A DNA stretch of 15,233 nucleotides from a virus (lineage: Duplodnaviria; Heunggongvirae; Uroviricota; Caudoviricetes). Both the position numbers and the translations under genes were made by a program. Shown one piece after another: positions 3,109-3,267 of this stretch (positions are counted from its first letter, which is position 1; every line of letters starts with the position of its first letter). The stretch lies in the IMG/VR virus record IMGVR_UViG_2585427789_000028, positions 1 to 15,233 of that record. One strand, written 5' to 3'. Under the pieces are notes generated by a model that had not been told where the DNA came from, searched no databases, and saw nothing but the letters and a program-made list of their open reading frames with translations.

Positions 3109-3267
3109 TCAAACACAAATTCAATTCATGAATTCACCGCCTCAATTAAACCATATTTGGTTTGCTCTTGCCTAGTGTCATTATTATTTATATAGTGACA
3201 TACCAACTTTCAAATTATAATTTATATATTTTAGGACCAAACCCAATACATTTTAAAAGGTGTAACA
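3109..3267. promoter_or_regulatory. AT-rich divergent intergenic region between the lysis cassette and the acetyltransferase; contains palindrome AACCATATTTGGTT
   Basis: About 160 bp of AT-rich non-coding sequence between divergent genes. Palindrome AACCA-N4-TGGTT at 3139-3152 and TGTCA-N15-TGACA nearby. No Q-like gene precedes the lysis genes. Confidence 0.4.

What the first reader, a model, noticed from the sequence alone, without database searches (positions are those of the whole stretch)
3139..3153. Identical 15-bp palindromic motif upstream of the lysis cassette and in the early-right region
AACCATATTTGGTTT (AACCA-N4-TGGTT) occurs at 3139-3153, upstream of the holin genes, and again at 9076-9090, just upstream of the zinc-ribbon ORF and downstream of the Cro-like terminator. 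An exact 15-mer shared between two regulatory intergenic regions in 15 kb is only modestly unlikely by chance, but its palindromic form and placement fit a shared regulator binding site. With no Q gene present, the small zinc-ribbon protein (8814..9014) could be a late-gene activator acting on it.
Basis: inference. Interest (0 to 1): 0.45.

Follow-up and report, generated by a model that had tools for sequence, protein, structure and literature searches.

The report
Conserved operator-like palindrome at phage restart promoters
The repeated 15-base palindrome is real and belongs to a short DNA signal that epsilon15/phiV10-type phages keep in front of each gene block that must restart rightward transcription, next to repressor binding sites; the protein that reads it is unknown, and the small zinc protein is not the best candidate.

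Summary
A third, diverged copy lies at 7489-7503 upstream of the tail-fibre gene. An exact repeat alone is weak evidence, because about 15% of simulated windows contain one. Conservation is what makes it convincing.

The window is a deleted phiV10/epsilon15-type (Uetakevirus) prophage. The same imperfect palindrome ("B", nnYCAWATRYGGTT) sits at the same gene positions in E. coli, Salmonella, Enterobacter and Klebsiella phages. These positions are upstream of the gp42 replication operon, the head operon, the tail fibre and the lysis genes. At the lysis site it is present in all 56 distinct sequence contexts sampled, and conservation starts exactly at B. A Klebsiella phage with no reverse-oriented insert before its holin gene has no B there.

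B always lies at about 2, 4 or 5 helical turns from operators of the Rep repressor (TTACC-N5-GGTAA), and often 5 nt from a Rep half-site. So a shared regulatory site is supported. The zinc-ribbon activator idea is not: the gp42 family occurs in many phages without B. Rep, the Cro-like gp41 and the PerC-like protein are the regulators confined to B-bearing phages. The binder and the sign of regulation remain inferred.

The parts
3149..3163 (-). Motif B copy 1 (minus strand AAACCAAATATGGTT; 14-bp core 3149-3162), 75 nt from B start to the ATG of the holin-family gene (3087). It also lies about 48 nt upstream of the predicted start of the divergent acyltransferase promoter.
   Evidence: Exact match. 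The equivalent site is present in all 56 distinct contexts upstream of gp27 homologs, 72-77 nt from the ATG. Both flanks in the window differ from phiV10, but B is kept.
9076..9090 (-). Motif B copy 2 (core 9076-9089), 75 nt from B start to the gp42 ATG (9014), immediately downstream of the gp41 terminator and a Rep operator.
   Evidence: Found at the same gene position in phiV10, epsilon15, Tyrion, SPN9TCW and BUCT711. The central base is polymorphic among close relatives.
7489..7503 (-). Motif B copy 3 (minus strand ATCCATATGTGGTTT), 78 nt upstream of the tail-fibre ATG (7425). It is followed by the conserved GGTAATAGAAT, with a -10-like TAGAAT at 7479-7474.
   Evidence: The prophage deletion junction lies at 7500-7504, at the left edge of this site.
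9095..9109 (.). Rep-type operator A (TTACCTTTGAGGTAC, 1 mismatch to TTACC-N5-GGTAA), 5 nt from B copy 2; centre-to-centre distance 19.5 bp.
   Evidence: Epsilon15's GenBank record annotates this palindrome type as a 'repressor' protein_bind feature.
9432..9494 (.). OR region with three A-type operators (9432-9446, 9463-9477 degenerate, 9480-9494) between gp41 and Rep. The predicted PR promoter (minus strand 9449-9421) overlaps the first.
10192..10268 (+). OL/PL region: A (10192-10206), then TTGACA-N17-AATTAT (10226-10254), then A (10254-10268). The spacer holds a degenerate B-like sequence, which is a good B in Tyrion and BUCT711.
9124..9143 (-). Intrinsic terminator after gp41, which isolates the gp41 gene from the gp42 replication operon.
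   Evidence: also annotated in phiV10.
9165..9395 (-). gp41, a 76-aa Cro-position HTH protein (phrog_35) and the only gene on the PR transcript before the terminator. It is the top candidate B binder, by inference.
   Evidence: restricted to Uetakevirus-type records; HTH aligns with the Rep N-terminal HTH; recognition helix AGTTSHYIQxHLT invariant.
9550..10134 (+). Rep repressor, a homolog of SPC32H Rep (PDB 5D50).
8814..9014 (-). gp42, a 66-aa Zn-knuckle protein (C23, H27, C38, C41) and the first gene of the replication operon.
9049..9077 (-). Inferred weak sigma-70 promoter of the gp42 operon: TTGATC (9077-9072), 17-nt spacer, CAAAAT (9054-9049). This places the B centre near -40.5 and the A centre near -60.
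   Evidence: Read from the sequence. The elements are conserved in five genomes. It matches 8 of 12 positions, which is below the scan threshold. Inference only.
2683..3087 (-). Holin-family membrane protein gene (gp27 homolog, Phage_holin_8), the first gene of the lysis cassette.
3168..3196 (+). Predicted sigma-70 promoter of the acyltransferase moron (TTGCCT-N17-TATAGT).
12846..13145 (+). PerC-family protein (phrog_868) in the early-left operon. It is a lineage-restricted candidate regulator.

Best explanation
Motif B (consensus nnYCAWATRYGGTT; arms AACCA/TGGTT, AT-rich centre) is a cis-regulatory protein-binding site shared across the epsilon15/phiV10-type (Uetakevirus) phages. One copy sits in the promoter-proximal region of each secondary rightward transcription unit. 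These are the places where rightward transcription must restart after a terminator or after a reverse-oriented insert: the gp42/DnaT/P replication operon behind the gp41 terminator, the gp45/RuvC block, the head operon, the tail-fibre gene and the lysis cassette. The three window copies belong to the replication, tail-fibre and lysis classes.

B is physically coupled to operators of the prophage repressor Rep (TTACC-N5-GGTAA). A full operator or a half-site lies 5 nt away, or 4-5 helical turns upstream on the same DNA face.

Shown here: existence, conservation, placement and the coupling to Rep operators.

Inferred:
1. B is read by a small dimeric HTH protein specific to this phage lineage. 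My first choice is gp41, the only product of the immediate-early PR transcript, followed by the second DNA-binding pair of the Rep tetramer.
2. Occupancy of B switches these intrinsically weak promoters on in lytic growth. Rep bound at the abutting A sites keeps them off in the lysogen and blocks activation by related co-resident phages.
3. gp42 is a member of the regulated replication operon rather than the regulator.
For: Existence and excess.

Conservation at the same gene positions in phiV10, epsilon15, Tyrion, SPN9TCW and BUCT711, although the flanks have diverged.

Lysis-site survey: 56 of 56 distinct contexts carry B 72-77 nt from the ATG. Information content rises exactly at B. Several lineages, including the window's, have a different leader yet keep B.

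B is absent before the holin gene in BUCT711, where the tail-fibre gene abuts the holin gene and no restart is needed.

The asymmetric sites all point the invariant GGTT arm toward the downstream gene.

No canonical sigma-70 promoter and no terminator lies between the window's B sites and their genes, whereas PL, PR and the moron promoter are canonical. This fits factor-dependent promoters.

A-B centre distances take only the values 18.5-19.5, 40.5-44.5 and 52.5 bp over 131 contexts (about 6 independent classes, all within about 1.5 bp of whole turns). GGTAA peaks at -34 and at -10/-9 relative to B.

Lineage profile: Rep, gp41 and PerC-like hits are confined to the ~36 Uetakevirus-type phage records. 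The gp42 and gp55 families are not. Phages with 65% and 89% identical gp55 homologs have no B.

The gp41 HTH aligns with the Rep N-terminal HTH. Its recognition helix is invariant although overall identity falls to 58%.
Against: No binding or transcription-start data exist for any of these promoters. I could not obtain the epsilon15 genome paper or the SPC32H Rep papers.

The position of B relative to the best -10-like hexamers is not constant. The B centre falls at about -26.5 (lysis), -27 to -29.5 (head, tail fibre), about -40.5 (gp42) and about -20 (gp45/RuvC, and PL in Tyrion). That is easier to reconcile with a repressor than with a classical activator.

In the window's own lysis-site variant no -10 element is recognisable downstream of B.

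No convincing B lies in OR, where a Cro-type protein would be expected to act.

Each site class is homologous across genomes, so the many contexts reduce to a handful of independent observations.

The left arm is poorly conserved and GGTT is invariant, so the site may be read asymmetrically or may overlap another signal.
Confidence: 0.6

Rival explanations
1. B is a second, auxiliary operator type for the Rep repressor itself. The SPC32H-type Rep tetramer has two pairs of DNA-binding domains. One pair holds a high-affinity A site. The other pair occupies the promoter-proximal B (ACC-N6-GGT versus ACC-N5-GGT in A) and silences each restart promoter in the lysogen. No activator is involved.
For: Rep is a clear SPC32H Rep homolog. 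That Rep binds DNA as a tetramer whose DNA-binding pairs come from different dimers (PMC9638917 discussion). A and B share the ACC/GGT core triplets and are helically phased. A at PR occupies the same promoter position (centre about -25) as B at the lysis promoter. The variable B-to-(-10) distance is tolerable for a repressor. A operators at late promoters imply that those promoters need direct silencing.
Against: B never drifts toward A. GGTT is invariant and never GGTA across more than 25 sequence variants. The AT-rich centre of B is constrained, while the N5 of A is free. The predicted core promoters are weak and would hardly need repression. Some B sites have no A within 80 bp, including the window's copy 1.
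Confidence: 0.25
2. One reading: the 66-aa zinc-ribbon protein gp42 binds B and activates the lysis and other late genes, in the way that Ogr/Delta zinc-finger activators work in P2/P4.
For: gp42 is present in all Uetakevirus genomes examined. It has a Zn knuckle plus a long basic helix that could contact DNA. A B site precedes its own gene, so autoregulation is possible.
Against: The family is widespread in unrelated and lytic phages. It has no Ogr_Delta or other Pfam match, no PDB sequence match and no structural neighbour. It heads the replication module. The B sequence is unlike the Ogr site (TGT-N12-ACA, from my own knowledge).
Confidence: 0.07
3. B is bound by a host (enterobacterial) DNA-binding or architectural protein that the phage recruits to assemble repression or activation complexes at these promoters.
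For: B is invariant across phages of Escherichia, Salmonella, Enterobacter, Citrobacter and Klebsiella. Helical phasing with A would suit an architectural factor.
Against: I could match B to no known host factor consensus (IHF, Fis, CRP, LexA, FadR/PdhR and MqsA considered from memory). I could not scan host genomes for B enrichment.
Confidence: 0.06
4. B has no protein-binding function. It is a chance repeat, an RNA hairpin in read-through transcripts, or merely the edge of a recombination module next to the variable moron slot.
For: An exact 15-mer repeat alone has p of about 0.15. At the lysis site B marks the left edge of the conserved block. A prophage deletion endpoint falls at the edge of site 3.
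Against: B is conserved at four or five non-homologous positions per genome in five genomes. It is retained where both flanks are replaced. There is no compensatory covariation: the outer left-arm bases vary while GGTT stays fixed, which argues against an RNA stem. The spacing to A operators is fixed.
Confidence: 0.02

Closest known systems
Lambdoid/434-type operators (14-17 bp palindromes bound by Cro/CI HTH dimers)
   Same: B is a 14-bp dyad with 4-5 bp arms one helical turn apart and an AT-rich, largely non-specific centre. It occurs in several copies at phage promoters. Candidate binders are small HTH proteins encoded at the immunity region.
   Different: B is not concentrated at OR/OL. 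It is dispersed to every secondary rightward promoter, including late ones. It coexists with a different palindrome (A) that is the actual OR/OL operator. Only one arm (GGTT) is strictly conserved.
SPC32H/epsilon15 Rep-Ant system and its TTACC-N5-GGTAA operators
   Same: Same phage group. The Rep homolog is present (5D50, E 4e-42). B is always phased with these operators or abuts their half-sites, and shares the ACC/GGT core triplets.
   Different: B has N6 spacing, GGTT instead of GGTAA, and a constrained centre. It is not annotated as a repressor site in the epsilon15 record, which lists only A-type sites.
Activator-dependent middle/late promoters of temperate phages without Q (Mu Mor/C, P2 Ogr, P4 Delta, phi29 p4)
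   Same: The core promoters are weak, with a conserved dyad close to or overlapping the -35 region. The same dyad is repeated before each late operon. There is no Q-type antiterminator.
   Different: The sequence is unrelated to the Ogr/Mor/C sites. Distance to the -10-like elements is not constant. One B site controls an early/middle (replication) operon. No activator has been identified.
Mycobacteriophage L5 'stoperators' (many repressor sites spread through the genome)
   Same: Regulatory sites linked to immunity are distributed across the whole genome, including late regions, rather than only at the immunity locus.
   Different: L5 sites are asymmetric, orientation-dependent and lie within transcription units, where they block elongation. 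B and A lie in promoter regions upstream of operons.

Membership tests
Phage operator for a dimeric HTH regulator (434/lambda type) | Dyad-symmetric 14-17 bp site with conserved arms about 10 bp apart | tested here: met
   AACCA-N4-TGGTT. The arms are conserved and the centre is AT-rich and variable. The symmetry is imperfect, because the outer two bases of the left arm vary.
Phage operator for a dimeric HTH regulator (434/lambda type) | Located at or overlapping promoters it controls, in multiple copies | tested here: inconclusive
   Three copies in the window and 4-7 per complete genome, all upstream of operons. Promoter positions are only predicted, and the B-to-(-10) distance varies.
Phage operator for a dimeric HTH regulator (434/lambda type) | Demonstrated binding by a phage-encoded regulator | not testable with these tools
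   No EMSA or footprint data were found. Candidates were ranked only by lineage distribution.
Rep (SPC32H/epsilon15) operator, TTACC-N5-GGTAA | Match to the TTACC-N5-GGTAA consensus | tested here: not met
   B has ACC-N6-GGT spacing and GGTT arms. No B is hit by the A pattern at up to 1 mismatch.
Rep (SPC32H/epsilon15) operator, TTACC-N5-GGTAA | Clustered at OR/OL flanking the rep gene | tested here: not met
   OR and OL carry A sites. B is absent from OR and occurs only sporadically in the PL spacer.
Ogr/Delta-type zinc-finger late activation (P2/P4) | Activator of the Ogr_Delta family (Cys4 zinc finger) | tested here: not met
   gp42 has no Pfam hit at E<=0.01 and has a C-x3-H...C-x2-C ligand pattern.
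Ogr/Delta-type zinc-finger late activation (P2/P4) | TGT-N12-ACA dyad centred near -55 of late promoters (from my own knowledge) | tested here: not met
   The B sequence and its position are different.
Q-type antitermination (Q binding element in the promoter plus a downstream terminator) | Intrinsic terminator between the promoter and the regulated genes | tested here: not met
   No terminator-like site lies between any window B site and its downstream start codon.
Q-type antitermination (Q binding element in the promoter plus a downstream terminator) | A Q-family protein encoded by the phage | tested here: inconclusive
   None of the regulators scanned matches a Q family. I did not scan every ORF of complete relatives. 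The gp55-type regulator, in the Q-like position, does not co-occur with B.
LexA box | CTGT-N8-ACAG (from my own knowledge) | tested here: not met
   B has CC/GG arms, as read from the sequence.
Structured RNA hairpin | Compensatory changes that maintain pairing of the arms | tested here: not met
   The left-arm outer bases vary (AA, AT, TT, CT, AC) while the right arm GGTT stays fixed.

The most novel reading that the evidence does not exclude
The 'Cro-like' gp41 is not (only) a lytic repressor. On this reading it is the master activator of a transcription programme that has no Q antiterminator. It is the sole product of the immediate-early PR transcript. It binds B and switches on every secondary rightward promoter (replication, head, tail fibre, lysis). 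Rep half-sites placed 5 nt from B, or on the same DNA face 4-5 turns away, veto this activation in lysogens and protect the prophage from activation by related co-resident phages. This would be a two-palindrome switch not described for any temperate phage.
Probability: 0.3. Interest if true: 0.6.

Novelty: new member of a known kind. Interest (0 to 1): 0.4.

Why it matters
Epsilon15/phiV10-type podophages are used as O157 reporter and typing phages. They carry serotype-converting morons and are very common prophages of E. coli and Salmonella. How they time middle and late gene expression without a Q-type antiterminator has not been worked out, as far as I could find. A single 14-bp element sits before every restart promoter and is wired to the Rep operators. 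That gives a concrete handle: one site to mutate and three or four proteins to test. It would also explain how reverse-oriented morons can sit between late genes without cutting off lysis-gene expression. For engineering reporter phages, it marks the sequence that must be kept when cargo is inserted next to the tail-fibre or lysis genes.

Tried and rejected
1. gp55 (epsilon15 gp49-type 'transcriptional regulator', the last gene before terS, in the Q-like position) as the B binder: rejected. Pectobacterium phage ZF40 (65% identical homolog) and the lambda-like phage Chlobot (89% identical homolog, with its own Q and N) have no B and no A sites.

Nearly all are single chance hits in unrelated contigs, and only Uetakevirus-type loci had an A site nearby. 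This was uninformative.

4. PDB sequence searches for gp41, gp42 and gp55: nothing found.

5. Literature. The epsilon15 genome paper (PMC2698709) and the SPC32H Rep/Ant papers (PMC3807360, PMC4983836) are not held. The ZX5 paper gives only predicted PL/PR promoters. The PerC/Pch papers describe antagonism of H-NS on AT-rich DNA without a consensus site, so a PerC-B link could not be tested.

6. A search for heteroimmune mosaics among 80 loci with identical gp42: all carry the same immunity module.

7. Attempts to force one promoter geometry on all classes (B at -41.5 everywhere; the -10 inside B; sigma-54 or extended -10 readings): none fits all site classes.

8. B as a Cro site at OR: only a weak, non-conserved B-like sequence lies near the rep start in phiV10 and the window.

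Full report
**The observation.** The 15-mer AACCATATTTGGTTT occurs exactly twice in the window, at 3149-3163 and 9076-9090. With up to two mismatches there are four matches against 0.06 expected. An exact repeated 15-mer is not rare by itself: 15% of first-order Markov simulations of the window contain one. The case for function therefore has to come from elsewhere.

**What the window is.** The window is nearly identical to a prophage next to yfgH/yfgI in E. coli AST205. It is about 95% identical to large parts of phage phiV10, an epsilon15-like podovirus of the genus Uetakevirus. The genes, in window coordinates:
- Rz 1290-1772 (-)
- endolysin, about 1769-2398 (-)
- holin 2388-2696 (-)
- holin-family gp27 homolog 2683-3087 (-)
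- a divergently transcribed acyltransferase moron 3268-4179 (+)
- tail fibre 4351-7425 (-)
- truncated P 7480-8001 (-)
- DnaT-like 7983-8798 (-)
- Zn-ribbon gp42 8814-9014 (-)
- terminator 9143-9124 (-)
- Cro-position gp41 9165-9395 (-)
- repressor 9550-10134 (+)
- the early-left operon up to the integrase

The prophage is a remnant. About 25 kb, from the 3' part of P through all head and tail genes, has been deleted. All three sites lie 75-78 nt (B start to ATG) upstream of a minus-strand start codon.

**Conservation.** I call the element B. In phiV10's native orientation, B-like sites lie upstream of four genes:
- gp06 (start of the head operon): AATCATATGTGGTT
- the tail fibre: ATCCATATGTGGTT
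- gp27 (lysis): AACCATATATGGTT, a perfect palindrome
- gp42: AACCAAATATGGTT

A weaker copy lies at the 3' end of gp24, and a degenerate one lies before gp45.

The same classes of site are found in Salmonella phages epsilon15 and SPN9TCW, Enterobacter phage Tyrion and Klebsiella phage BUCT711, although the flanks have diverged. A position matrix finds 4-7 positions per Uetakevirus genome at a score of 13 or more. A lambda-like genome of similar size has two weak, unrelated hits, and ZF40 has none.

For the lysis class I collected 83 loci encoding a gp27 homolog. Their upstream regions fall into 56 distinct contexts. Every one has B, starting 72-77 nt before the ATG. Per-column information content is low on the moron side and jumps exactly at position 3 of B. 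Several lineages, including the window's, also have a different leader between B and the ATG and still keep B.

In BUCT711 the tail-fibre gene directly abuts the holin gene, with no reverse-oriented insert between them. There is no B before its lysis genes, while the other classes are present.

B therefore marks the places where rightward transcription must restart after a terminator or after an insert on the opposite strand. Where a site is asymmetric, the invariant GGTT arm always faces the downstream gene. The outer bases of the left arm vary with no compensating change in the right arm. That argues against an RNA stem and for a DNA site read by protein.

Among 60 near-identical upstream regions of gp42, the central base of B takes all four values, with C commonest. 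The window's two copies being identical to the base is therefore partly luck; the arms are what is fixed.

**Coupling to the repressor operators.** The epsilon15 GenBank record annotates a different palindrome, ATTACC-N5-GGTAAT, as 'repressor' binding sites. In the window this palindrome (A) forms the operators between gp41 and the repressor gene (9432-9494). It also brackets the strong early-left promoter TTGACA-N17-AATTAT (10192-10268), and one copy lies 5 nt from B copy 2 (9095-9109).

The repressor is a clear homolog of SPC32H Rep (PDB 5D50, E 4e-42). That Rep is reported to bind DNA as a tetramer with two pairs of DNA-binding domains (PMC9638917).

In complete genomes an A site lies upstream of every B. 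Over 131 distinct B contexts with an A nearby, the centre-to-centre distance takes only the values 18.5-19.5, 40.5-44.5 and 52.5 bp. That is within about 1.5 bp of 2, 4 or 5 helical turns. These contexts reduce to about six independent site classes, so the statistic is suggestive rather than strong.

In the otherwise variable flanks of the lysis site, GGTAA shows two sharp peaks. One is at -34, the right half of a distal full operator. The other is at -10/-9, a half-site 4-5 nt from B. This proximal half-site is present in 19 of 56 contexts, plus 4 with the opposite orientation. A and B share the core triplets ACC and GGT but differ in spacing (N5 versus N6) and in the arm sequence (GGTAA versus GGTT). 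B never drifts toward A.

**Promoters.** A consensus scan finds canonical sigma-70 promoters for PL, PR and the acyltransferase moron. It finds none downstream of the three B sites, and no terminator between B and the genes. Conserved -10-like hexamers follow B after 7 nt (lysis: TATAAT/TATGAT), 8-10 nt (head: AATAAT; tail fibre: TAGAAT) or 21 nt (gp42: TTGATC-N17-CAAAAT, in which the -35 overlaps the end of B). In Tyrion and BUCT711 a B-like sequence fills the spacer of PL. B is thus always promoter-proximal, overlapping or abutting the -35 region, but not at one fixed distance. These promoter assignments are inference; no transcription-start data were available.

**Who binds B?** I used lineage distribution as a test.
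- **gp42.** It has no Pfam or PDB sequence match. Its confident model (pLDDT 90.7; Zn knuckle with C23, H27, C38, C41 plus a basic helix) has no structural neighbour.
- **gp55.** This 'transcriptional regulator' occupies the Q-like position in complete relatives. It has close homologs in the myovirus ZF40 and in a lambda-like phage, and neither carries B or A.
- **Rep, gp41 and the PerC-family protein.** Each hits only the ~36 Uetakevirus-type records.
- **gp41.** It is a 76-aa HTH protein (phrog_35). Its HTH aligns weakly with the DNA-binding N-terminal HTH of Rep. Its recognition helix is invariant from E. coli to Klebsiella phages while the rest of the protein diverges to 58% identity. It is also the only gene on the PR transcript before the terminator.
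- **Rep.** The core of its recognition helix is equally invariant.
- **PerC/Pch.** These proteins are described as antagonists of H-NS on AT-rich DNA with no defined site.

None of this identifies the binder. It ranks gp41 and Rep above PerC-like, and well above gp42 and gp55.

**Most likely mechanism.** Shown: B is a conserved, promoter-proximal, operator-like site at every restart promoter, in register with Rep operators.

Inferred: a lineage-specific HTH dimer occupies B. gp41 is my first choice, acting positively on weak core promoters. Rep at the abutting or phased A sites would then keep the units silent in the lysogen. The main rival is that B is an auxiliary operator for the second DNA-binding pair of the Rep tetramer. 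That would explain the phasing and the loose spacing to the -10. It would not explain the strict A/B sequence distinction or the weak core promoters.

The zinc-ribbon activator is not supported, though it is not excluded.

**Comparison and novelty.** In form B resembles 434-type 14-bp operators. In genomic distribution it resembles the activator sites of late promoters in Mu or P2. It fails the defining tests for Rep operators, Ogr/Delta sites, Q binding elements, LexA boxes and RNA hairpins (see the membership table). It is not annotated in the phiV10, epsilon15, Tyrion, SPN9TCW or BUCT711 records. I could not read the epsilon15 genome paper, so prior description cannot be ruled out. I rate it a new member of a known kind (a phage operator or activator site), of moderate interest.

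Noticed in passing
window 4043-4292: An 8-bp tandem array (GCACAGCA, about 32 copies) in two blocks separated by CTGTGATAA covers the 3' end of the acyltransferase moron (stop at 4179) and runs beyond it. The near-identical AST205 prophage has 116 bp fewer, and other strains differ in length too. A unit that is not a multiple of three suggests slipped-strand variation of the enzyme's C-terminal tail.
   Followed up: partly
window 7500-7504: The ~25-kb deletion that made this prophage a remnant joins the P gene (phiV10 position 34733) to phiV10 position 20917. That is exactly at the left edge of B site 3, with a few bases of microhomology. It removes the upstream Rep operator but keeps B and the tail-fibre upstream region intact.
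   Followed up: partly
window 8395-8547: An array of at least six iteron-like repeats ((A/T)TCCCGTTTTTGGG..., spacing 24, 24, 18, 18, 45) lies inside the DnaT-like replication gene. It is probably the phage origin, analogous to the iterons inside lambda O.
   Followed up: partly
L005-L084, about 60-110 nt upstream of gp42; window 9076-9111: Among prophages that are otherwise 98-99% identical, a few positions in this regulatory stretch are hypervariable. These are the central base of B (all four bases), the left half and N5 of the adjacent Rep operator (GTACC, GCACC, TTACC, TCACC) and the length of the T-run. This looks like tuning or diversifying selection on operator strength.
   Followed up: partly
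L003 24746-24810 (phiV10) and most gp27-upstream loci; not in the window's variant: The usual lysis-operon leader can form a ~20-bp hairpin that starts at the last bases of B (GTTTATTGTGTATGATGAAC pairing with GTTCATTATGCACAGTAAAC). Epsilon15 annotates this as an RNase III site. It also contains a conserved out-of-frame ATG 23 nt before the gp27 start. The 5' arm includes the -10-like TATGAT, so the hairpin and the promoter readings compete.
   Followed up: no
L003 87-119, L004 12-44, L085 67-99: Two adjacent Rep-type operators (18 bp apart) overlap the ribosome-binding site and start of the small terminase gene in phiV10, epsilon15 and Tyrion. Another overlaps the RBS of gp45/RuvC. Rep operators therefore sit on translation start regions as well as in promoters.
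   Followed up: no
window 10739-12438 versus L002 4749-6509: The window has separate RecE-like (10739-11560) and RecT (11557-12438) genes, whereas the phiV10 record annotates a single fused RecE-RecT protein.
   Followed up: no
window 3109-4350: The acyltransferase cassette (hexapeptide-repeat type, 303 aa, AT-rich, with its own TTGCCT-N17-TATAGT promoter) differs from phiV10's Oac. At 80% or more coverage of the 2600-4400 segment, which holds the cassette plus parts of the flanking holin genes, it is found in only 11 of 5426 complete E. coli genomes. The slot between the tail-fibre and lysis genes holds many different morons across relatives.
   Followed up: partly
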